A stretch of DNA of 10,489 nt, from positions 1 to 10,489 of the IMG/VR virus record IMGVR_UViG_2703718820_000012; one strand, written 5' to 3'. Below the pieces are notes generated by a model. It did not search any database, had not been told where the DNA came from, and was given only the letters and a program-made list of their open reading frames with translations. Source of the stretch: a virus. Lineage: Duplodnaviria; Heunggongvirae; Uroviricota; Caudoviricetes. Below, in pieces: positions 1 to 10,489 of this stretch (its first letter is position 1; each line of letters starts with the position of its first letter). The translations under genes were made by a program, and so were the position numbers.

Positions 1-1
1 G

Positions 2-688
2 GACCAGGAAAAATGGAGCGGCGACGGTGCCGGACTCAAGGCCATCACCGGCGGCGATGCGGTGTCCGTGGACCCGAAATACCGGGATGCGTACTCCACG
101 CATATCCCGGCGGTAATTCTGGCCGTGAACAATAACCCGATGCGCTTCACCGACCGCAGCGGCGGCGTGTCACGCCGGCGGGTGATTATTCACTTCCCGG
201 AACAGATAGCCCCGCAGGAGCGCGACCCGCAGCTTAAGGACAAAATCACCCGCGAGCTGGCGGTCATCGTGCGTCACCTGATGCAGAAGTTCAGCGACCC
301 GATGCTCGCCCGGTCACTGCTTCAGTCCCAGCAGAACTCAGACGAGGCGCTGAACATCAAACGGGATGCCGACCCGACGTTTGATTTTATCGGCTATCTG
401 GAAACCCTGCCGCAGACCAGCGGCATGTATATGGGGAACGCCAGTATCATCCCGCGCAATTACCGTAAATACCTCTATCACGCCTATCTGGCCTACATGG
501 AGGCAAACGGCTACCGGAATGTACTCAGTCTGAAAATGTTCGGGCTGGGGCTGCCGGTGATGCTGAAGGAATACGGACTGAATTACGAGAAGCGCCATAC
601 CAAACAGGGGATACAGACCAACCTGACGCTGAAAGAGGAAAGCTACGGCGACTGGCTGCCAAAATGTGACGACCCTGCAACAGCCTGA
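2..688 (+). CDS. P4 alpha-like DNA primase/helicase, C-terminal portion (5' end lies upstream of the window)
   Basis: The listed ORF (62..688) starts at an internal GTG. The same frame is open from nt 2 with no stop in 2-61 (DQEKWSGDGAGLKAITGGDAVSVDPKYRD...). The sequence resembles the C-terminal region of phage/plasmid P4-family primases as I recall them. It is followed by an intrinsic terminator and by TGTTCACC iterons, the known binding motif of P4 alpha. Confidence 0.8.
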   Translation, partial: DQEKWSGDGAGLKAITGGDAVSVDPKYRDAYSTHIPAVILAVNNNPMRFTDRSGGVSRRRVIIHFPEQIAPQERDPQLKDKITRELAVIVRHLMQKFSDPMLARSLLQSQQNSDEALNIKRDADPTFDFIGYLETLPQTSGMYMGNASIIPRNYRKYLYHAYLAYMEANGYRNVLSLKMFGLGLPVMLKEYGLNYEKRHTKQGIQTNLTLKEESYGDWLPKCDDPATA

Positions 689-695
689 CCCACCT

Positions 696-720
696 GACCG
701 GCATCTGCCGGTCTTTTTTT
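696..720 (+). terminator. Rho-independent terminator of the primase gene
   Basis: Stem gaccggc (696-702) pairs with gccggtc (707-713), with loop atct, followed by a run of 7 T (714-720). It lies 8 nt after the TGA stop. Confidence 0.75.
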
Positions 721-738
721 ATCCCGACATCCCCCGAA

Positions 739-767
739 GGTGAACAATCCACTGTTCACTCTTCACT
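739..767. promoter_or_regulatory. Partial alpha-binding iteron cluster (TGTTCACC type)
   Basis: GGTGAACA at 739-746 is an exact reverse complement of TGTTCACC. TGTTCACT at 753-760 matches 7/8, and tcttcact at 760-767 matches 6/8. The arrangement is the same as at the start of each crr-like repeat further downstream. Confidence 0.55.
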
Positions 768-1149
768 GTATATCCCCCGTACCAATATGAATTTAGTGAC
801 AAGAAAACATAAGTTGAACAGGAAAACCCAAAGAACTTTTTATCCCCCTCCAGACATTACCTGTCGCATCCATATTGAGCAAAAAATCTCATAGATAGAG
901 TGGTATTATTAACGTTTATCGCTTATCTAAATAGTAAAAACAAAATGCGATTCTAATTTTATTCACAGGGTAAATAACTGAAATTATCTAAATAACTATA
1001 AACCCCTCATATATATAAATAAATTATACCACATAACCAAAATACGATATTCTGCTGAGATCATTAAATTTAAGCTTATTTCAATGGCTATTACTCTAAA
1101 GATTTGTTAATAACCAGTCGTCATGAAAATATACTTACAGTTATGTTTA

Positions 1150-1158
1150 TGCTATAAT
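1150..1158 (+). promoter_or_regulatory. Candidate extended -10 promoter element for the HAD gene
   Basis: tgcTATAAT has a TGn extension plus a perfect TATAAT at 1153-1158, 28 nt upstream of the ATG. No convincing -35 element is present. A strong Shine-Dalgarno GGGGAGG lies at 1175-1181. Confidence 0.35.
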
Positions 1159-1185
1159 CAGTGACAAATATTTTGGGGAGGAATT

Positions 1186-1872
1186 ATGAAAATTTGTTTT
1201 TTCGATATGGAGGGGACTTTACTTGAAAAGAACTCATATTTAGATAATGGAAAAGTTGCACCGAGCGCGTGGACAGTACTTGCCAAAGAAATCAGCGAAG
1301 CTTGTTTTATTGAAGAGGAAAAAACAAAAGATTTATGGCTAGCTAATAAATATATCAGCTATACACAATGGATGAAAGAAACTGTTGAAATACAAATCAA
1401 ACATGGAATGAACAAAAATCACCTACAAACGGTATTATCTCAAGCGAAGATACAAAAAGGTGCTGTGGAACTTATTCATTATTTGAAAAGTCAAGGATAC
1501 TTAACAGTATTGATATCTGGTGGGTTTAAAGAATTAGCAGACCTAACTCAAAAGAGCCTAAAAATAGATCATGCATATAGTGCTTGTGAATATTTTTTTA
1601 GGAAAGATGGTAGCATTGAGCACTTCAATCTATTACCAACAGATGAGGAAGGGAAACTGGTCTTCATGAAACACCTTGCCTCTGAATATAACGTAGAACT
1701 TGAAAATTGTATTTTTGTTGGCGATGGGAAGAATGATGTTTTTATCGCCAAAAATGTAGGTACTTCTATAGCCTTCAATGCTCAGAGAGAATTAAGAGAA
1801 GTATCTACATTTATTGTAGACCAAGAAACACCTGATTTATCAGCGATTATTGACCTTATTAGAACTATTTAA
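1186..1872 (+). CDS. HAD-superfamily hydrolase, subfamily IB (phosphoserine-phosphatase-like)
   Basis: A strong RBS (GGGGAGG) sits 4 nt upstream of the ATG. HAD motifs are visible: motif I FFDMEGTLL, motif II VLISGGF, and motif IV VGDGKNDVFIAKNVGTSIAFNA (GDGxND). The layout resembles SerB. The gene sits in AT-rich DNA. Confidence 0.8.
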   Translation: MKICFFDMEGTLLEKNSYLDNGKVAPSAWTVLAKEISEACFIEEEKTKDLWLANKYISYTQWMKETVEIQIKHGMNKNHLQTVLSQAKIQKGAVELIHYLKSQGYLTVLISGGFKELADLTQKSLKIDHAYSACEYFFRKDGSIEHFNLLPTDEEGKLVFMKHLASEYNVELENCIFVGDGKNDVFIAKNVGTSIAFNAQRELREVSTFIVDQETPDLSAIIDLIRTI

Positions 1873-2673
1873 TCGATTTTGGAAGTCAAGTTTATCTTTA
1901 ACTATTTCCAGTTGTTCCTCTAACTGTTTTATCTTTGATTCAGACTGTAATTTGTACTGATTAAATTCATTTAAGTCAAATTTCTCTGAGAAATAGTAAT
2001 CTCTCCCAAAAGAAATTAGCGAGAGGAATAACCCAACAACAGCGATCATCGTTCCTATTTTAGTTATCGATATAATTGATAATTTTTCAGTTAGCTCTTT
2101 GCTTATCTGCTCTTTTAGAACTACTGGTTCTAAAAAAGTTTTAGGAAAATTACTTATATCTGAAACACGGTAAGATCTATATTCATTATATTGTTCTATA
2201 ACATCATAAGAACTAGGCACAGCAGAAGCCGGTTGATAATTTGGATTTTTTTCTATTTCATGGAATACAACTCTAAAGAAAGATTTATCTTGCTCACTAT
2301 CAGTAACTGGAAGATATTCCTCTACAGCTGAGAAATTAATTAACAGTGTTGATATCGGACCGTTATATCCAGAATCGATAATACCAGTATTGAGTGCAAG
2401 AAACCCCTTTTGCGATAATCTATTTTTTAAAAATACATATGCAATAAAACCCTCTGGCACATGAAGTATTTCTTCTGATATTACAAAAGCCGAATCTTGC
2501 GGTTTAAGTAAAGTTCTTCCGAGAGATCTTACATGATTTTTTTCATCTTTAAAAAGAATTTCCCTAATAGAAAGATCCACACTTGATTTATTAGAATAAT
2601 CTTTTGTGATTTTTTTGTTATATCTATCACAAACAAACCCATATTCAATTGCTTTTTGAGCACTAATCTGCAT
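1840..2673 (-). CDS. dUTPase/dCTP-deaminase-fold protein with C-terminal transmembrane helix and coiled coil
   Basis: RBS aggtga lies upstream of the ATG at 2673. LKNRLSQKGFLALNTGIIDSGYNGPISTLLINFS aligns by eye with E. coli Dut ([35 protein letters not shown]) and Dcd ([33 protein letters not shown]). The hydrophobic stretch IGTMIAVVGLFLSLISFG spans aa 206-223 (nt 2005-2058). A heptad-like tail KLQSESKIKQLEEQLEIVKDKL follows. Confidence 0.75.
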   Translation of the reverse strand: MQISAQKAIEYGFVCDRYNKKITKDYSNKSSVDLSIREILFKDEKNHVRSLGRTLLKPQDSAFVISEEILHVPEGFIAYVFLKNRLSQKGFLALNTGIIDSGYNGPISTLLINFSAVEEYLPVTDSEQDKSFFRVVFHEIEKNPNYQPASAVPSSYDVIEQYNEYRSYRVSDISNFPKTFLEPVVLKEQISKELTEKLSIISITKIGTMIAVVGLFLSLISFGRDYYFSEKFDLNEFNQYKLQSESKIKQLEEQLEIVKDKLDFQNRLNSSNKVNNR

Positions 2674-2721
2674 ACTTCACCTAACTTAGCTTATTCTATC
2701 GAACAATAATTGAATCACATA

Positions 2722-2751
2722 GTTATAATGTAACTAGACGAATATATCCAA
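2722..2751 (-). promoter_or_regulatory. Candidate sigma70 promoter for the Dut/Dcd-like gene
   Basis: On the minus strand, TTGGAT (2746-2751) is followed by an 18-nt spacer and TATAAC (2722-2727), about 50 nt upstream of the ATG. This rests on a by-eye match to consensus only. Confidence 0.25.
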
Positions 2752-2892
2752 TGTTTTTGAATATATTATTGACGAAGCAAGTCAACTGATCAATACTGTG
2801 TATAAAAAAACAACATCTTCACCACATATAAAAAAAACATAAAATCATGGTACTACCTCAAAGTCCTGACTCCTGCTGAATTGCTTAATCAT

Positions 2893-2990
2893 AAGAAGCG
2901 CCATACAAAACAGGGAATAAAGAGCAACCTGACGCAAAAAGAGGAAAGCTACGGCCACTGGCTGCCAAAATGTTACGCTCCTGCAACAAC
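2893..2990 (+). pseudogene. Remnant of a second alpha-primase 3' end (copy B of the repeat)
   Basis: It encodes KKRHTKQGIKSNLTQKEESYGHWLPKCYAPATT, homologous to the last ~33 codons of the intact primase gene. There is no upstream coding body and the original stop is lost, so the frame reads on into the terminator and iterons. Confidence 0.75.
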
Positions 2991-2998
2991 CCTACCTA

Positions 2999-3022
2999 GA
3001 CCGTCCTCTGCCGGTCTTTTTT
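2999..3022 (+). terminator. Degenerate copy of the primase terminator
   Basis: gaccgtc (2999-3005) pairs with gccggtc (3010-3016) with one mismatch, followed by 6 T. It is homologous to the terminator at 696-720. Confidence 0.5.
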
Positions 3023-3039
3023 ATCCCGGCCCCCCAGAA

Positions 3040-3345
3040 GATGAACAATCCACTGTTCACCTTTCACCGTATATTCACCTGTTATCATACTGAAATTAAA
3101 AGAGAAAAATGAAAGGTGAACAGTGTGAACAATCAAATCAAAAAAACTCTTTTCTCCTTGTGTGATTTCAGTCCGGGGAATTAATCACCGGTATGAGTCA
3201 CACCGGCAGAATGCCGGAGGTGAAGAATCAAATGTTCACCCTTCACCCATTATTCACCACCTATCATACTGAAAGTAAAAGAGAAAACAGAAAGGTGAAC
3301 AGTGTGAACAGTTCTTTCGAAAAAAACTTTTTTCCTGTACGATAC
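3040..3345. promoter_or_regulatory. crr-like cis replication region: two ~125-bp direct repeats carrying TGTTCACC iterons
   Basis: Exact TGTTCACC occurs at 3054-3061 and 3233-3240. Exact GGTGAACA occurs at 3115-3122 and 3294-3301. 7/8 variants occur at 3040-3047, 3072-3079, 3124-3131, 3219-3226, 3251-3258 and 3303-3310. The units are about 3040-3165 and 3219-3345, with a 179-bp period. This matches the published description of P4 crr as two 120-bp repeats separated by 60 bp. Confidence 0.75.
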
Positions 3346-3618
3346 AGCATCAATCAAAGTAAAAATGAGCTTTCATTCCACATTAACTTACAGCCATTGG
3401 TATACAATTAGGTATACGCACAAAAGCTGAATTAAATAAAATAATTAAAAATCAAAGAAATAAAATACTTATTCAAACTCCGCCAGCCCAATCATGATTG
3501 GACGGTGTAAGGACAACACCAACAAAAACAGGAAGTTAGCAGTCTCAGCAGGACACCGACCAGACGGTGAGGAGACAAAAAAGGATACGCAAAGGAGCCG
3601 CGGCTCTCGAGTGACACA

Positions 3619-3649
3619 AAAGCCCGCTTATGCGGGCTTTTTGTTTTTC
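3619..3649 (+). terminator. Rho-independent terminator with no upstream protein-coding gene
   Basis: Stem aagcccgc (3620-3627) pairs with gcgggctt (3632-3639), with loop ttat, followed by tttgttttt. No ORF of 60 aa or more ends here. Confidence 0.65.
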
Positions 3650-3718
3650 CCTTAAGTTCCTAGCCGCTTATCTATAACTATGGAAAAATGTTAACCCTGA
3701 CTGTATGTTAACAAAGGG

Positions 3719-4933
3719 ATGTATATGTCGGTTTTTCATAACTGGCTGCTTGATATCGCAAGCGGGAATTACTTTATCTACATCAAACGCCTTTCTGCAA
3801 ACGACACAGGCGCAACAGGTGGCCATCAGGTCGGACTTTATATCCCCTCAAATATCGTTGAAAAGCTTTTTCCATCAATCAATCATACTCGCGAACTGAA
3901 CCCTTCAGTCTTCCTTACTGCGCATGTATCATCCCATGATTGCCCTGATACCCAAGCACGCGCAATTTATTACAACAACCGTTATTTTGGTAAGACCCGA
4001 AACGAAAAAAGAATTACGCGCTGGGGGAGAGGAAGTCCATTACAGAACCCTGAAAATACAGGAGCCCTCACAATTCTTGCTTTCAGGTTAAACGAACAGA
4101 ACACTGACTGTTCCGAGGTAGATATATGGGTCTGCGTCAATCCCGATGAAGAGGATATCATCGAGTCTGCTATTGGCGAAATCATACCTGGAACCCTAAT
4201 TTCCGGCCCTGCCGGACAAATTTTGGGCGGATTGTCTCTTCAGCAAACTCCAGTAAATCATAAATATGTTATTCCTGAAGACTGGAAGAAGCGTTTTCCT
4301 TCTGGAAACGAAATTATTCAATATGCTGCTGGCCATTATGCTAAAAACTCCAAGGATCCAGATGAGCAACTGATTGACCGTCGGCGTGTCGAGTATGATA
4401 TTTTTCTACTCGTCGAGGAATTACATGTTCTTGATATTATTAAGAAAGGATTCGATTCTGTAGATGAGTTTATTGCATTAGCCAACTCTGTCAGTAATCG
4501 ACGTAAATCAAGGGCAGGCAAATCACTTGAACTTCACCTAGAGAAGCTTTTTATCGAGCACGGACTACGGCATTTCTCCACTCAGGCAGTTACTGAAGGT
4601 AATAAAAAACCAGATTTCCTGTTTCCTTCAGCAGAGGCATATCATAACGTTGAATTTCCTGTAGAAAACTTACGTATGCTGGCAGTAAAGACCACCTGCA
4701 AAGATCGCTGGCGTCAGATACTGAATGAAGCAGATAAAATCCATCAGGTACATTTATTTACACTGCAAGAAGGTGTTTCTTCAGCACAATACCGAGAAAT
4801 GAAAGATGCGGGTGTCAGACTCGTTGTACCATCAACTTTACATAAAAAATACCCAGAAGCAGTTAGAGAAGAATTAATAACGCTCGGAGCATTCATTACT
4901 GAGCTGATAGAGCTTTACGCTGAACTATCATAG
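3719..4933 (+). CDS. ecoRIIR: Type IIE restriction endonuclease, EcoRII family (CCWGG)
   Basis: The 404-aa product is near-colinear with EcoRII as I recall it (SVFHNWLL...YIKRLSANDTGATGGHQVGLYIP...KKPDFLFPS...LAVKTTCKDRWRQILNEADK). Counting from the ATG at 3719, residues fall on the literature numbering: R88, E271, D299, Y308, K324, E337. An alternative ATG at 3725 has better SD spacing. Confidence 0.93.
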   Translation: MYMSVFHNWLLDIASGNYFIYIKRLSANDTGATGGHQVGLYIPSNIVEKLFPSINHTRELNPSVFLTAHVSSHDCPDTQARAIYYNNRYFGKTRNEKRITRWGRGSPLQNPENTGALTILAFRLNEQNTDCSEVDIWVCVNPDEEDIIESAIGEIIPGTLISGPAGQILGGLSLQQTPVNHKYVIPEDWKKRFPSGNEIIQYAAGHYAKNSKDPDEQLIDRRRVEYDIFLLVEELHVLDIIKKGFDSVDEFIALANSVSNRRKSRAGKSLELHLEKLFIEHGLRHFSTQAVTEGNKKPDFLFPSAEAYHNVEFPVENLRMLAVKTTCKDRWRQILNEADKIHQVHLFTLQEGVSSAQYREMKDAGVRLVVPSTLHKKYPEAVREELITLGAFITELIELYAELS

Positions 4934-4938
4934 GCTGA

Positions 4939-4961
4939 CTCCCGGCTTAAAAGGCCGGGAG
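4939..4961. terminator. Hairpin between the convergent R and M genes (possible bidirectional terminator)
   Basis: ctcccggc (4939-4946) pairs with gccgggag (4954-4961), with loop ttaaaag. It sits in the 34-nt gap between the two stop codons. Neither side has a clear T tract. Confidence 0.45.
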
Positions 4962-4967
4962 ATGTTC

Positions 4968-6401
4968 TCAAGGCTGCCCAGTCTTACCAGCATCAGCAGA
5001 AACAGCTTTGAGGATATAGGGTTCCAGAAGTCTGGCAACAGCTTCAAATACTGGCACCACAACTGAGTTACCGAACTGCCGATATGACTGAGTATCTGAA
5101 ACCGGAATACGGAATGGTTTCCCTCCAGGTTTTTCAAATCCCATAAGGCGTGCACACTCTCGGGGAGTCAGCCTGCGTGGTCGACGAGCCTGATTACTCT
5201 CATTCATAAAGTCAGCCTCTCCCGTTGCCATATCCCAACCACGATCAATAAGAATTTCTGATCCGTCTTTGTGATATCTGGCAGAAAGTGTGCGTGCAAT
5301 GCTTTCCTTATTCTCAGGATTGACCAACCCAAAGCCAAAACCATTCCCCTTGGCTGCATGCTTTTTGGCGTAGTTATAAAGGTACTCCCATAGTTTTGGC
5401 GTAAGTATATATTTACTGTCGACTACAGGCTCCAGCAATTCACCAAATGATGGGCGGTGTTCCGGATAAAAACGACTGATATCACGCAAGGTAAACCCCT
5501 TGTGAATATTCAGATCTCGTCTAAATCCGACCAGAACAATGCGTTCACGATGCTGAGGCAAAAAATGCTTCCCATCGATAATCTTTGGATCGTTTTTTCC
5601 CATTTCTGCAGCATCGGCAACTTCGTAGCCCAGCTCGTCAAGGGTCTCCATAATCACTTTGAAAGTTTTACCCTTATCATGGCTCTTCAGATTTTTGACA
5701 TTTTCCAGCACAAAAATTGCCGGTTTTTTTGCTCGTATAATACGTGCCACGTCAAAAAAAAGTGTTCCTTGTGCTTCACATTCAAAACCATGCGCACGAC
5801 CAAGTGAGTTTTTCTTACTAACACCAGCAAGGCTAAATGGCTGGCACGGGAACCCCGCAAGAAGCACATCATGATCCGGCACATGCTCATCAATATATGC
5901 ATAAGCATCCGTTTCCAATACATCGGTTTTATCACTCAGCGTGACTTCCCGAATATCGAGATTGAATTTATGCACCTGTTCATCGTTAAACCAGTTGGCT
6001 TTGTATGTACGCACAGCATCTTTATTCCATTCACTGGTAAAAACACACTGGCCTCCAATGGCCTCAAAACCTTTCCGTATCCCTCCAATTCCAGCAAATA
6101 AGTCAATGAAGCGGAAAGCATATTCCGGATGGTTTGCAGGTGGTTCTGGTAGCATCTTACGCAGAAGAGACTCTTCTACTGAAGTCAACGATTTTGGTAA
6201 ACACTTGCCATTAATCCAGCGGTTAATGGTTTCACGGCTCCACTCATTTTTTCCGACTTTTCTCAGTAATTCAGCCACATACTTCTGATCATAGATTTCC
6301 AGCACTTTCTCGATAAGCTTTTTATCATTTTCCTGTCGCAGCTTTTCTTCCGCCTCGGCTTCCTTCAGCAGATGCTGTGCCAACACTTCAAATTCAGACA
6401 T
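4968..6401 (-). CDS. ecoRIIM: DNA (cytosine-5) methyltransferase, M.EcoRII/Dcm family (CCWGG)
   Basis: The C5-MTase motifs are all present: [10 protein letters not shown] (I), GFPCQPFS (IV), FVLENVKNL (VI), QHRERIV (VIII), [11 protein letters not shown] (IX) and GNSVVVPV (X). The preferred start is the ATG at 6401 (MSEFEVLAQ...), preceded by GGAGG 5 nt upstream. This gives 477 aa and places the catalytic Cys at position 186, as in M.EcoRII. The ORF-track start at 6443 has no RBS. Confidence 0.93.
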
Positions 6402-6762
6402 AATTCCTCCAAGGGGTCTAATGGGTGAAACTTTATCACTCATTCAACCCAGAAGGAAATGTTTTATCTGGATATTTAAACAGTGACTACAACGTAATCT
6501 AGCACTGGTGATGCTTTGTTAGGCATAGAGAATCATTCTATATACGACTAATGACAGAAAAACAGCAGACAAGTAGTTTGTTCATAAATTAACGCATACT
6601 ATGTGTCTACGGTTTTCGAGACCGGTCCAATCATCAAACGAAACATAAAATTAGCTCACATTATGAGGAAAAGTATCTTTTTTGTACTATGTAAATTCAA
6701 AGGCTTAGCCTCATTTCTCCGATGGTTTTCTCAACACTACTGGTTGTGAGCCCTTGCAATGA

Positions 6763-7581
<819 letters not shown>

Positions 7582-7600
7582 GTCTTTAAGTGATAAGCAT

Positions 7601-7642
7601 AAACCGCAGCACGATCTTCTTCCATACGACGTGCTACGGTTT
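7601..7642. terminator. Long hairpin between the convergent GIY-YIG and invertase genes
   Basis: aaaccgcagcacg (7601-7613) pairs with cgtgctacggttt (7630-7642). The stem is 13 bp with one mismatch and the loop is 16 nt. It abuts the invertase stop codon. The T tracts are weak. Confidence 0.45.
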
Positions 7643-8196
7643 CATTTATCTCCGACCGGAAACTTCTTATACAGTGTCGATATACCAACATCATAGATGA
7701 TCGCCACCTTCTGGCGAGGAACGCCTGATGCAATTAATCGCCCGGCCTGCGCCCATTGTTCTGGTGTAAGTTTGGGACGACGTCCACCAATTCGTCCCTG
7801 TGCGCGAGCAGCTTCCAGTCCAGCTTTTGTTCGTTCAACAATCAGTTCTCGTTCCATTTCAGCCAGGGCACCCATCACATGAAAGAAAAAACGCCCCATC
7901 GGTGTGCTGGTATCAATAGCATCCGTCAGACTGCGAAAATTAACGCCACGTTCGCGCAACTCCTCAACCAGAATGACCAGATGCCGCATACTACGCCCCA
8001 GCCGATCCAGCTTCCAGACAACCAGAGTGTCACCTGCCGATAATGTCCTGAGCAGTTTTTTCAGTCCCGGCCTTTCGGACTTTGTACCGCTTATCTTGTC
8101 TTCAAAAATCAGCTCGCATCCTGCACAGTTCAGCGCATTACGTTGTAGATCTGTGTTCTGGTCATTTGTTGATACGCGTACATAGCCAATAAGCAT
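7642..8196 (-). CDS. pin: Serine-recombinase DNA invertase (Pin/Gin/Hin/Cin family)
   Basis: MLIGYVRVSTNDQNTDLQRNAL...VVWKLDRLGRS...MGRFFFHVMGALAEMERELIVERT...GRIGGRRPKL...IYDVGISTLYKK is the hallmark of this family. It includes the catalytic Ser in YVRVST and a C-terminal HTH. The true start is the ATG at 8196, giving 184 aa, the same length as e14 Pin. The ORF-track start at 8232 adds 12 unsupported residues. Confidence 0.93.
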   Translation of the reverse strand: MLIGYVRVSTNDQNTDLQRNALNCAGCELIFEDKISGTKSERPGLKKLLRTLSAGDTLVVWKLDRLGRSMRHLVILVEELRERGVNFRSLTDAIDTSTPMGRFFFHVMGALAEMERELIVERTKAGLEAARAQGRIGGRRPKLTPEQWAQAGRLIASGVPRQKVAIIYDVGISTLYKKFPVGDK

Positions 8197-8250
8197 GGTA
8201 GATCCCCCTGACAAAAGCAGGAATGATGCCATCTGCTCGTTATTTCTGCA

Positions 8251-8276
8251 TTTTCATAAACGTTGGTTTGGGAGAA
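8251..8276. promoter_or_regulatory. 26-bp invertase crossover site (pix/gix-like), invertase-proximal
   Basis: ttttcataaacg-tt-ggtttgggagaa is the reverse complement of TTCTCCCAAACC-AA-CGTTTATGAAAA. This matches the Din-family AAACC-NN-GGTTT core. It lies in inverted orientation to the site at 9782-9807 and shares its central AA/TT dinucleotide. Confidence 0.85.
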
Positions 8277-8630
8277 GCGGCAAAACGGAATGTAGGTAAC
8301 GGGCAAAACCAAATTCCGGATATGGCGGCGTTTGCCAGTTCACTTTCATCAACGGGTTTTCAAAAACTCCCTTCAGGTCTGATTATTCAGTGGGGTATTG
8401 TCAGTGGAGCATCAAACTATACGGTGACTTACCCGGTAACATTCCCAAATCGTTCACTTGCGCTGTTGGCTGTGCCACATACAACGTCGGTGGCTGGTAT
8501 ATCTGCAATGGGCATAGCGAACTGTTCTGATATCAGCAAATCACAGTTCTATATAATTGTTGGCGGTATATCTCAGGGAGAAATTGTCAAATATGAAAGG
8601 TCCTGTTTTTGGGTAGCAATCGGTGTATAG
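8265..8630 (+). CDS. Alternative tail-fibre C-terminal cassette (silent orientation, no start of its own)
   Basis: [23 protein letters not shown]... parallels [23 protein letters not shown]... of the expressed fibre, then diverges. After inversion it would be in frame with the constant part (9796-10489). The ORF-track portion 8223-8264 lies outside the segment and is spurious. Confidence 0.75.
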   Translation, partial: GLGEAAKRNVGNGQNQIPDMAAFASSLSSTGFQKLPSGLIIQWGIVSGASNYTVTYPVTFPNRSLALLAVPHTTSVAGISAMGIANCSDISKSQFYIIVGGISQGEIVKYERSCFWVAIGV

Positions 8631-8638
8631 GTATATCT

Positions 8639-9034
8639 ATGATTTATTTCTCAAAATCGACTAATGGTTTTTTCTTTGATGGTATAAACAGCGACATGCC
8701 TGCTGACATTGTTGAGATAAGTACAGACTTATACAATGAATTAATTGCCGGACAGCAGGAAGGGGGGAAATTAATCACGTCAGATGAAAATGGTTTACCG
8801 GTACTGAAATCTCCGGCGATTGATTATGTCGCACGTGCTGAAAATCAGCGAATGCAGTTACTTGCTCATGCCGATAATGTCACAGCTGACTGGCGGGTGG
8901 AATTAATGCTTGGTGATATCAGCAGTACAGATAAAGAAAAACTATCTGCCTGGATGGACTACAAAAAAGAAGTAAAAGCCGTCGACACTTCGACGGCTCC
9001 TGAGATTAGCTGGCCTGAGTTACCGGAGGTGTAG
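8639..9034 (+). CDS. tfa: Tail-fibre assembly protein (partner of the silent cassette)
   Basis: MIYFSKSTNGFFFDG...LYNELIAGQ...[30 protein letters not shown] follows the typical Tfa/U-family layout. It lies directly downstream of the fibre cassette. The start is placed at the ATG at 8639 rather than the ORF-track start at 8609. Confidence 0.8.
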   Translation: MIYFSKSTNGFFFDGINSDMPADIVEISTDLYNELIAGQQEGGKLITSDENGLPVLKSPAIDYVARAENQRMQLLAHADNVTADWRVELMLGDISSTDKEKLSAWMDYKKEVKAVDTSTAPEISWPELPEV

Positions 9035-9425
9035 GCCATTCAATATCTGGCGCACCGGAAGTATCGACCAGTTCCAGTGCGTCCAGGTAATCCAGCCACA
9101 AATTATATTGTGCCAGTTCCTCACCTTTCAGCCGGCCAATAGCCGCTTTACCAGGCCATTGTTTACTGTTCATATAATCGTTGGCCTGTTCAATAAGTAT
9201 ATTTTTCATTCCCTCCGCTTCAGCTATTTCCTGTTCATGTGTCTTCGCTGGATATTCAGTAAGTACAGGGTAGTTATCCGGGCTATTGATAATAATTTTC
9301 CCCGTACTCTGACCATTCATAAGTTCATAATAAAGAGCATCTTCAATATCGAAAGCATCATCGGGAATATCGCTGTTGTTTTCAGAGAAAAATCCCTGAA
9401 CAGATGGGGACCATTTCATTTTCAT
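9006..9425 (-). CDS. tfa: Tail-fibre assembly protein (partner of the expressed fibre)
   Basis: [15 protein letters not shown]...LYYELMNGQ...[28 protein letters not shown] is a paralogue of the 8639-9034 product. Its start overlaps the fibre stop (ATGA overlap at 9422-9425). Confidence 0.8.
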
Positions 9426-10489
9426 AATTTCCCAATTCCTAAAATATGGACATCATCAGCCTTACGGGCATTCCAGGTGACAATTACATCGGTAGAGTGA
9501 CGATTAACTGAGATTGCGTATGCTTCGTTAGTCGAGCCAGAAACTTTTGTGGCAAACACAGCAAACAGGACACCAAATGACTGGGGCCATTTATAGCCTG
9601 ACAGCTGATAATTACCATTATCCAGTGTTACAGCTTTGACTGCTGCACTTGATGGAATCGTCAGCCACTGGAGTATCAACCCTCCTGGCAAAAGTTGTTT
9701 TCCATAAAAATCCCTCACACCACTAAATGAAACCATATCCGGTATCTGATTTTCCCCTGTTCCCACGTCCCGTTTTGCCGCTTCTCCCAAACCAAGGTTT
9801 TCGAGAGCCGTTTGCACAGTGCCATCCGATTTGATATCGCCAAACGGATTCTTGCGGCTTAACAGCAGCGCACGAAGTGCGGTAAGCATCTGGTCATGCC
9901 GCCCTTTCTCCAGGCTGGCACCGGAGGCCTCCACCACGCTACAAAGTTCTTCCTGCAACATGTCAAAGTAGTCATCATCCAGATCGGTGGCAGGTGTGCC
10001 GGTCTGGGGGTTACCACGGGTATCCGGTTTGTCGGTGTTACTGCCCTGACCGTTCTCTCTGTGACGATGCCCGTTATAGGCAAGCCGCATCGCTGACATG
10101 GTGGTGCCGCCGGAGTCGCACAGGTCTTTCACCTGTCCGGTCACTTCCAGGTCCATTTCAAAACGTGCTTCAGGTGCATTGCGAAACGTGATCGTTTTAC
10201 CTGCACCGTCCACCACGATCCCCTCCCGGGTCAGCGTCACGGACTGCCCCTGATCGTCATAGACAGCCACCTCGCCCGTCTGCAGCCCTTTCAGGCGGTA
10301 GCGACGGTCCGACACCGTAACAACCACCGCATGAGAACGGTCGCCATCCGGAAACAACACCACCGCTTCCGCACCGCTGTTTGCCCTTGCGGTAAAACCG
10401 TAGGGTTCAAGATGTTCAACCCCGGCTTTGGGTTCACCGGCAATCAGGGACACATCCACGGTCTGTAGTGGCACACTAAATTTGGCCAC
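9422..10489 (-). CDS. Tail protein: Mu Gp45-like baseplate domain fused to an invertible tail-fibre C-terminus (5' end probably beyond the window)
   Basis: The N-terminal part [55 protein letters not shown]...YNGHRHRE resembles the Mu Gp45 / baseplate assembly V family. The C-terminal part [37 protein letters not shown]...[13 protein letters not shown] is tail-fibre-like and crosses the inversion site at 9794/9795. The frame is open to the window edge. Confidence 0.75.
9782..9807. promoter_or_regulatory. 26-bp invertase crossover site (pix/gix-like), within the fibre gene
   Basis: TTCTCCCAAACC-AA-GGTTTTCGAGAG is a near-palindromic Din-family site. It is inverted relative to 8251-8276 and sits at the constant/variable junction of the fibre ORF (codons LENLGLGE). 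Confidence 0.85.

What the first reader, a model, noticed from the sequence alone, without database searches (positions are those of the whole stretch)
588..3075. Duplicated, diverged primase 3' end, terminator and iterons bracket the cassette: a cargo-exchange scar
Copy A (588-775) forms the functional end of the primase gene. Copy B (2893-3075) is an orphan fragment that has lost its stop codon and carries a mismatch in the terminator stem. The copies differ at many positions, with several amino-acid changes over ~33 codons. This is therefore not a fresh target-site duplication. It looks like recombination between two different P4-like elements within the conserved alpha-3'/crr region, which delivered the AT-rich cassette. 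That would make the alpha-crr junction a cargo insertion point in addition to the hotspots already described for P4-like satellites.
Basis: partly seen in the sequence, partly recalled or inferred. Interest (0 to 1): 0.6.

Follow-up and report, generated by a model that had tools for sequence, protein, structure and literature searches.

The report
Satellite-into-satellite fusion scar in P4
The repeated primase end is real, and is best read as the scar left when one P4-like phage satellite carrying a two-gene cargo was joined, at its own attachment site, to the primase gene of a second satellite, which suggests how such cargo moves between satellites.

Summary
Copy A (578-~780) and copy B (2884-~3080) are homologous at ~85%. 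A is the working end of a P4-type primase gene plus a strong terminator. B is a decayed orphan: stop codon lost, weakened terminator, substitutions spread evenly over codon positions.

Several P4-like lineages are involved, but this is not an insertion point between alpha and crr.

- In at least six other lineages the same HAD + dCTP-deaminase-like cassette lies after crr, next to a selC (tRNA-Sec) attachment site, with no copy B.
- The window keeps that donor's attP arm and the first 8 nt of its att core (GACTCCTG, 2868-2875), fused directly to copy B.
- A Klebsiella satellite with a leuX-type tail shows the same fusion at a different primase codon.
- Three further satellites with other cargo (retron RT-TIR, cII/Beta-like, an unknown protein) carry equivalent scars.

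Best model: the donor's integrase recombined attP with a pseudo-site in the recipient's primase gene, homologous recombination resolved the cointegrate, and redundant parts decayed. The integrase step is inferred.

The primase-att hotspot is already published. The scar anatomy and the mechanism appear new.

The parts
1..688 (+). 3' part of the alpha (primase-helicase) gene, P4-type
   Evidence: Pox_D5 domain. 99.1% identical to P4 X51522 over 1-577. The satellite core is 97.5% P4 over 5,940 nt.
578..780 (+). Copy A: last ~36 alpha codons, terminator and first crr iteron pair. This is the functional copy.
   Evidence: Repeat families D1, D3, D5, D7. 96.6% identical to P4. 97-100% P4-like up to ~775, then ~50%.
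696..720 (+). Alpha terminator A (7-bp GC stem plus T-run)
   Evidence: -14.1 kcal/mol, z = -5.1. Found by the terminator scan. Corresponds to the annotated t-alpha of P4.
776..960 (+). Donor-type, decayed remainder of crr unit 1, the spacer and the start of crr unit 2
   Evidence: Aligns with the cassette-bearing selC-type satellites, not with P4. Only 3 iteron-like sites remain on the A side.
1186..1872 (+). HAD-superfamily hydrolase (SerB-like), cargo gene 1
   Evidence: Pfam Hydrolase/HAD. PDB phosphoserine phosphatase 1f5s, E = 1e-12. Always paired with gene 2.
1840..2673 (-). 277-aa dCTP-deaminase/dUTPase-fold protein with a predicted membrane helix and a C-terminal coiled coil, cargo gene 2
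   Evidence: Weak Pfam DCD/dUTPase hits. Family alignment. PDB dUTPase sequence hits. AF2 model pLDDT 77; Foldseek best hit 4xjc, E = 7e-8. No PADLOC model matches.
2777..2867 (+). Donor's selC-type attP arm: degenerate remnant of the (GTCAGCAG)n tract (2777-2794) and the arm-type motif TGTGTATA (2797-2804)
   Evidence: Colinear with the arm that precedes the tRNA-Sec core in L002, L013, L029 and L034. Local alignment z = 7.9, 0 of 300 shuffles.
2868..2875 (+). GACTCCTG: first 8 nt of the selC (tRNA-Sec 3' end) att identity block; the right junction
   Evidence: Only occurrence in the window. The full core GACTCCTGTGATCTTCCGCCA sits at the same position in the selC-type satellites and in tRNA-Sec.
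2876..2996 (+). Copy B alpha': orphan fragment of the last ~36 primase codons, stop codon lost
   Evidence: 18 differences from P4 in 108 nt, spread over codon positions [8,4,6], 11 non-synonymous to 3 synonymous. Functional lineages show a third-position bias such as [5,3,20]. RefSeq marks it as a partial pseudogene.
2998..3023 (+). Terminator B, weakened
   Evidence: -7.9 kcal/mol, G-to-T change in the stem.
3032..3332 (+). Intact crr: two ~115-120-nt direct repeats with five type I iterons each, and a 64-nt spacer
   Evidence: Repeat family D2, spacing 179. Iteron scan gave 21 sites against 7.9 expected. 94-95% identical to the annotated crr of P4.
3393..3490 (+). Right end of the satellite: ssrA-type attR arm (GGTATAC repeats, 3396-3418) and core-like ACTCCGCCAGCCCA (3477-3490)
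   Evidence: Arm repeat shared with the ssrA-proximal end. Homology with other genomic contexts stops at 3490. Resembles a tmRNA pseudogene/attP in phage LLS.

Best explanation
The repeat is a fusion scar between the att-proximal ends of two P4-like satellites.

The donor was a selC-integrating satellite. Its order was alpha - terminator - crr - HAD/dCTP-deaminase-like cassette - attP.

Proposed steps:
1. The donor's attP core was joined to a site about 36 codons from the end of the primase gene of a resident ssrA-integrating, P4-type satellite. This was most likely done by the donor's tyrosine integrase acting on a pseudo-att site.
2. Homologous recombination between the two sets of core genes removed one set. 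This left a single satellite: P4-type core and primase, donor crr remnant, cassette, donor attP arm with 8 nt of its core, then the recipient's orphan primase end, terminator, crr and ssrA attR.
3. A homologous exchange ending in the conserved iteron pair explains why copy A is P4-type up to ~775.
4. Redundant parts then decayed in a complementary way. The coding sequence and terminator were kept in copy A, and the iterons were kept on the copy B side.

Shown directly: the anatomy, the mosaic boundaries, the att-core junction, and its recurrence in other satellites.

Inferred: integrase catalysis, the cointegrate intermediate, and the order of events.
For: 1. In at least six lineages the cassette lies after crr and ends with (GTCAGCAG)n, a TGTGTATAG arm and the tRNA-Sec core. 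None of them has a copy B.

2. The window keeps that arm (z = 7.9) and GACTCCTG, then switches to alpha'. Its own integrase is only 40% identical to the selC-type integrase, and its attR is ssrA-type.

3. Klebsiella L018-L020 carry the same cassette and arm (z = 7.6). There GACTTCTGT is fused to alpha' at about codon -107, and the tail ends in the leuX/P4 core. This is an independent event in a recipient of a third att type.

4. L263 has a retron RT-TIR cargo and an arm with AATGTGTATAAA. Its junction reads ..cagtGAC|CCGGTGCTC in alpha.

5. In Klebsiella and L263 the alpha sequence at the target contains CGAC, the start of the core block; in the window it contains GGACT.

6. Copy A is P4-like up to ~775 and donor-like afterwards.

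7. Copy B decays neutrally only where it is redundant. It is 93-100% P4-like immediately after the duplicated part.

8. The A-side crr is decayed or deleted in the window, Klebsiella, L057 and L124, while the B-side crr is intact.
Against: - No intermediate (a primase gene interrupted by a whole satellite) and no reciprocal junction was found.
- At the nucleotide level the window junction needs an extra CTG or C to fit a clean crossover, and the Klebsiella junction is also blurred by decay.
- Target similarity to the core is short (4-5 nt).
- For L057 and L124 the donor arm could not be assigned to any att type (z = 0.7-3). For L263 the assignment is only suggestive (z = 1.5-3.4).
- Copy A being P4-type through the terminator requires an additional exchange, or a donor that was already chimeric.
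- L222 shows that cargo can also sit between the terminator and crr without any scar.
Confidence: 0.55

Rival explanations
1. Illegitimate recombination without integrase. Either two satellites sat in tandem and a random deletion removed the stretch from the end of the first to the primase 3' end of the second, or a donor fragment anchored by homology in alpha/crr was joined at its far end by microhomology (homology-facilitated illegitimate recombination).
For: Tandem P4-like arrays and internally deleted relics that keep alpha'-crr-att exist: L135 and L246. PMC8628076 reports tandem elements and their pseudogenisation. Small duplications would be the ones that survive packaging limits.
Against: In the window and in Klebsiella the donor's att type (selC) differs from that of the recipient tail (ssrA, leuX). 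Simple tandem integration at one site therefore does not apply. Three independent junctions fall at the first 3-9 nt of the att identity block. Random breakpoints would not do this.
Confidence: 0.22
2. One reading: homologous recombination between two P4-like elements inside the conserved alpha-3'/crr region delivered the cassette, making the alpha-crr junction a cargo insertion point.
For: The left boundary of donor sequence lies in the conserved iteron pair. The copies have different histories. Cargo lies between alpha and the intact crr in 5 scar-bearing lineages.
Against: Homologous crossovers do not create a direct duplication. The right junction is non-homologous, att core to alpha. The cassette's ordinary position is downstream of crr. 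200 of 204 sampled satellites have the first iterons 40-79 nt (IMG/VR set) or under 100 nt (metagenome set) after the alpha stop.
Confidence: 0.13
3. A long local duplication of a single satellite's own sequence arose when the cargo was inserted (staggered breaks or a replication template switch near crr), followed by in-situ divergence of the unused copy.
For: Copy B's changes are private and look neutral. Both copies are closest to the P4 lineage.
Against: The donor block brings its own crr remnant, attP arm and att-core prefix. The tail is 89% identical to P4 while the core is 97.5%.
Confidence: 0.05

Closest known systems
P4 alpha terminator and crr (cis replication region), as annotated in X51522/X05623
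   Same: Copy B plus 3032-3332 reproduces the P4 order: alpha end, t-alpha, then two 120-bp repeats with five type I iterons each.
   Different: Here that module is separated from the working primase gene by 2.1 kb of cargo. A second, partial module (copy A) ends the gene.
[quoted passage not shown]
   Same: The cassette and the other cargos seen here (retron St85 in L024, retron RT-TIR in L263, cII/Beta-like in L057) occupy that interval.
   Different: That paper describes the hotspot at gene level and leaves the exchange mechanism open. The alpha'-terminator-crr scar and the att-core junction are not mentioned in the passages I read.
Tandem and pseudogenised P4-like elements (PMC8628076)
   Same: L135 and L246 are of that kind, and orphan primase ends persist beside crr and att.
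   Different: In the window there is one complete, widely disseminated satellite with an internal scar. It is not an array.
Secondary-site integration by tyrosine integrases, and integrative elements that replace the 3' end of their target gene (for example e14 in icd, or tRNA-gene integration). Recalled from general knowledge, not tested here.
   Same: A functional gene end is supplied by the incoming DNA. A displaced, decaying original end is left on the far side, with the junction at the att core.
   Different: The DNA between the two copies no longer contains an integrase. On this model the rest of the incoming satellite was removed by homologous recombination with the resident one.

Membership tests
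P4-like phage satellite | Alpha primase-helicase with a D5/Pox_D5 C-terminal region | tested here: met
   Pfam Pox_D5. 99% DNA identity to P4 alpha. Full-length 777-aa gene in BEN2908.
P4-like phage satellite | crr: two ~120-bp direct repeats carrying type I iterons (TGTTCACC) downstream of alpha | tested here: met
P4-like phage satellite | Core set psu, delta, sid, alpA, a tyrosine integrase, and integration next to a tRNA or tmRNA gene | tested here: met
   RefSeq annotation of the identical locus in BEN2908, next to ssrA. 97.5% identity to P4 over the core.
Primase-att defence hotspot of P4 (PMC13586616) | Accessory genes between alpha and the att site | tested here: met
   Cassette at 1186-2673, attR at ~3490.
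Primase-att defence hotspot of P4 (PMC13586616) | Cargo is a recognised anti-phage system | tested here: not met
   No significant PADLOC model for either gene. Related scars do flank known systems: retron RT-TIR, E = 1.8e-192, and cII-like, E = 1e-21.
Transposon-type target-site duplication | Short, initially identical direct repeats flanking an element with a transposase or terminal inverted repeats | tested here: not met
   The repeats are ~200 nt and 85% identical. There is no transposase, and no inverted repeats bound the cassette.
Site-specific (tyrosine integrase) recombination junction | attP arm and a prefix of the core identity block abut the target sequence | tested here: met
   Window and Klebsiella.
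Site-specific (tyrosine integrase) recombination junction | Dependence on the integrase, a reciprocal junction, and target similarity across the overlap region | not testable with these tools
   Only a 4-5-nt resemblance (CGAC or GACT) is visible. No reciprocal junction is present.
dCTP-deaminase nucleotide-depletion defence | dCTP deaminase/dUTPase fold | tested here: met
   Foldseek hit to 4xjc, E = 7e-8, TM 0.65 normalised to the target. PDB dUTPase sequence hits.
dCTP-deaminase nucleotide-depletion defence | Match to the family's defence HMMs, or shown deaminase activity and phage protection | tested here: not met
   No PADLOC hit. Activity cannot be tested here.

The most novel reading that the evidence does not exclude
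Integrases of P4-like satellites can insert one satellite into the primase gene of another at pseudo-att sites. Homologous resolution of the cointegrate would then transfer att-proximal defence cargo between satellites that use different chromosomal attachment sites. The orphan primase end beside crr would be a diagnostic scar of this route.
Probability: 0.45. Interest if true: 0.65.

Novelty: new variant of a known kind. Interest (0 to 1): 0.5.

Why it matters
How defence cargo is swapped so quickly in P2/P4 hotspots is an open question. The 2026 survey lists possibilities but identifies no mechanism.

These scars are physical records of individual transfer events. They show which DNA came from which satellite and where the joints lie, and they point to the donor's own attachment site as one joint. 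If that holds, the route could be sought in thousands of genomes by a simple rule: an orphan primase end preceded by an att-core prefix. It could also be tested at the bench.

The scars also show redundant replication elements decaying in complementary fashion after duplication. That identifies the intact crr on the copy B side as the one presumably in use.

Tried and rejected
- The genome-contig scan with the dCTP-deaminase-like alignment returned only distant relatives outside P4-like satellites. The same scan of IMG/VR gave four loci. Exact-protein look-ups were more useful.
- tRNA and Rfam scans of the window found nothing.
- PADLOC gave no model for the cassette.
- I first read copy B as a possible second functional lineage. 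The codon-position test rejected that.
- I considered tandem integration at ssrA with a retained middle att site. No ssrA core or GGTATAC arm repeat lies between the cassette and copy B.
- I tried to assign the donor arms of L057 and L124 to selC or leuX types. The alignments were not significant.
- An apparent leuX pseudo-core in alpha at the L057 junction (GAGTACGGCCTGAAT against GAGTCCGGCCTTCGG) is noted from reading the sequences but is unsupported by the arm comparison.
- My interim statement that every cargo between alpha and crr carries a scar was corrected by L222.
Full report
**What is in the window**

Positions 1-688 are the 3' part of a primase-helicase (alpha) gene with a Pox_D5 domain. 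It is 99.1% identical to alpha of satellite phage P4.

The identical locus occurs in E. coli BEN2908. There it is part of a ~12.3-kb P4-like satellite next to ssrA, with the order int, psu, delta, sid, alpA and alpha. The core of that satellite is 97.5% identical to P4 over 5,940 nt.

After alpha comes an AT-rich stretch of 25-35% G+C with two convergent genes:
- a SerB-like HAD hydrolase at 1186-1872;
- a 277-aa protein at 1840-2673 on the minus strand. It has a dCTP-deaminase/dUTPase fold, a predicted membrane helix and a C-terminal coiled coil.

Then follow a fragment of the primase end, a second terminator, and the complete crr. The crr is two ~115-nt repeats with five type I iterons each. 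The satellite ends at about 3490, where homology with other genomic contexts stops. Downstream lie an EcoRII restriction-modification pair, a PD-T4-3 protein, an invertase and tail-fibre genes.

**The observation**

Copy A (578-~780) and copy B (2884-~3080) align at about 85%.
- Copy A ends the primase ORF and has a strong terminator (-14.1 kcal/mol).
- Copy B has lost the stop codon and has a weakened terminator (-7.9 kcal/mol).

Copy A is 96.6% identical to P4, and 377 E. coli records match it at 95-99%. Copy B's best match outside its own lineage is 89.6%.

Copy B is not the end of a different working primase. Its 18 differences from P4 in 108 nt are spread over codon positions [8,4,6], with 11 non-synonymous and 3 synonymous codon changes. 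Primase ends of functional lineages differ from P4 mainly at third positions, for example [5,3,20] and [4,0,16].

The extra divergence of the copy B side is confined to the duplicated stretch. Immediately beyond it, the B side is 93-100% P4-like.

**Where the cassette normally lives**

The same gene pair, at 74-88% DNA identity, follows alpha in P4-like satellites of E. coli, Citrobacter braakii, Enterobacter hormaechei, Pantoea vagans and unnamed metagenomic hosts.

In these elements the order is alpha, terminator, one intact crr unit, a spacer and the first iterons of unit 2, then the cassette. Where the downstream end could be read (L002, L013, L029, L034), the cassette is followed by:
- an eight-base microsatellite, (GTCAGCAG)n;
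- an arm with TGTGTATAG;
- about 85 nt further on, GACTCCTGTGATCTTCCGCCA, which is the 3' end of tRNA-Sec, i.e. the selC attachment core.

None of them has a copy B. So the cassette sits in the interval between primase/crr and att. That interval was reported in 2026 as a minor defence hotspot holding 7% of P4 systems.

**The junctions in the window**

Left junction. Copy A is 97-100% P4-like up to about 775, inside the first iteron cluster. From there the sequence resembles the donor-type satellites: a decayed rest of crr unit 1, the spacer, and the start of unit 2.

Right junction. The window keeps the donor's arm. It has a degenerate remnant of the microsatellite at 2777-2794 and TGTGTATA at 2797-2804. 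Local alignment to the selC-type arm gives z = 7.9, with 0 of 300 shuffles as good. It also keeps GACTCCTG at 2868-2875, the only occurrence in the window. Right after those eight bases the sequence switches from the tRNA-Sec core to the primase fragment.

The window's own integrase is only 40% identical to the selC-type integrase, and its attR is ssrA-type.

**Recurrence**

Klebsiella pneumoniae satellites (L018-L020) carry the same cassette and arm (z = 7.6). There GACTTCTGT is fused to a primase fragment that starts about 107 codons from the end. The two copies are 94% alike. The A-side crr unit has lost its iterons through two deletions. The tail ends in the leuX/P4-type core. This is an independent event in a recipient of a third att type.

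Scanning for the conserved iteron pair gave the following.
- IMG/VR: 104 loci. In 102 the iterons lie 40-79 nt after the alpha stop. The other two (L057, L124) have cargo there, and both carry an orphan primase end and a second terminator before the intact crr.
- Metagenomes: 100 loci, of which 98 are canonical. One exception (L268) is a duplicate of L057. The other (L222) has a small ORF inserted cleanly between terminator and crr, without a scar.
- Separately, two primase-end hits in one locus revealed L263, a new scar whose copy A keeps its first iteron pair next to the alpha stop.

The cargos differ:
- L057: a cII-like plus Beta-like pair.
- L124: an unknown 224-aa protein.
- L263: a retron type XII RT-TIR.

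In L263 the donor arm carries AATGTGTATAAA and the joint reads ..cagtGAC|CCGGTGCTC. For L057 and L124 the donor arm could not be typed.

**Mechanism**

The simplest account of a donor attP arm plus a prefix of its core abutting primase sequence, in recipients that use other att sites, is this: the donor's integrase recombined attP with a pseudo-site in the recipient's primase gene.

The Klebsiella and L263 targets contain CGAC, the start of the core block. The window target contains GGACT.

Such an event places a whole donor satellite inside the recipient in the same orientation. Homologous recombination between the two sets of core genes then removes one set. What remains is exactly the observed order. 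Only sites near the end of alpha would give small, packageable duplications, which would explain why the scars lie there.

In the window, an exchange ending in the conserved 19-nt iteron run would account for copy A being P4-type.

These steps are inferred. No intermediate or reciprocal junction was seen, and the window and Klebsiella joints are blurred by small indels and decay.

Tandem arrays and deletion relics do exist (L135, L246; PMC8628076). A route without integrase remains a serious rival.

**After the fusion**

The redundant parts decayed in a complementary way. On the copy A side, coding sequence and terminator were kept. On the copy B side, the iterons were kept. The A-side crr is degraded in the window, Klebsiella, L057 and L124.

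The copies share no exact run longer than 19 nt. From general knowledge of RecA-dependent recombination, this should make loss of the cassette by repeat recombination rare. The arrangement is indeed unchanged in ten different genomic contexts, and the exact protein is indexed in 275 blocks of the assembly collection.

**Verdict**

- Observation: confirmed.
- Interpretation: partly supported. Several P4-like lineages are involved and this is a cargo-transfer scar. It is not a new insertion point between alpha and crr, and not a purely homologous exchange.
- Hotspot: already described at gene level.
- Apparently new: the scar's anatomy, its recurrence with different cargos, and the att-core junction. 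They offer a testable route for cargo movement between satellites.

Noticed in passing
L002 13665-13810; also L013, L015, L025, L029, L034; window 2777-2794 (degenerate): An eight-base microsatellite, (GTCAGCAG)n or (GTCAGTAG)n, lies between the dCTP-deaminase-like gene's upstream region and the attP arm. Copy number varies from about 2 to more than 20 among satellites. In the window it is reduced to a degenerate remnant. It could act as a contingency (phase-variable) tract for the cassette.
   Followed up: partly
window 1840-1872: The HAD and dCTP-deaminase-like genes converge and overlap by 33 nt at their 3' ends. The pair is conserved from Enterobacterales to Vibrionaceae, Alteromonas-group genomes and IMG/VR contigs. 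No defence-system model covers it.
   Followed up: partly
window 3719-6443: Convergent EcoRII-type restriction endonuclease (404 aa) and C-5 cytosine methyltransferase (491 aa) lie just outside the satellite's right end. BEN2908 is identical to the window only up to 3642 and lacks them.
   Followed up: no
window 6808-7581: LEM-3-like GIY-YIG protein matching the PADLOC candidate defence protein PD-T4-3 (E = 1e-139).
   Followed up: no
window 7642-10489: Serine invertase followed by opposed tail-fibre C-terminal and tail-fibre-assembly genes. This looks like an invertible host-range segment of a Mu-like prophage, whose tail and baseplate genes follow in BEN2908.
   Followed up: no
window 3476-3642: The stretch resembles a 'tmRNA pseudogene / attP' region of phages LLS, Ayreon and phiNP at 86-89% and ends in a strong terminator (3618-3641). 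This suggests a second ssrA-targeting element abutting the satellite.
   Followed up: partly
L135 1-9000: Two P4-like satellites sit in tandem at an ssrA-type site. The second keeps int, a SIR2-HerA system, psu and delta, but is deleted from sid to about 130 codons before the end of alpha.
   Followed up: partly
L246 12800-13414: A relic in which the middle of an integrase gene is fused directly to the last 67 codons of alpha, followed by an intact terminator and crr.
   Followed up: no
L222 (reverse complement) 3874-4590: A 176-aa ORF of unknown family is inserted precisely between the alpha terminator and the first crr iteron, with no primase duplication. This is the one scar-free case of cargo between alpha and crr.
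   Followed up: partly
L032 / L033 (Leclercia pneumoniae) 7350-8813: The HAD/dCTP-deaminase-like pair occurs without any P4-like genes beside it, next to a SymE toxin gene like those found beside the selC-type satellites (L013, L029, L034). It may be what remains after loss of a satellite.
   Followed up: no
L024 (E. coli M10) 3713-5600: A retron St85 system lies after alpha and crr in a satellite at the selC/rhuM locus. It is another occupant of the primase-att interval.
   Followed up: no
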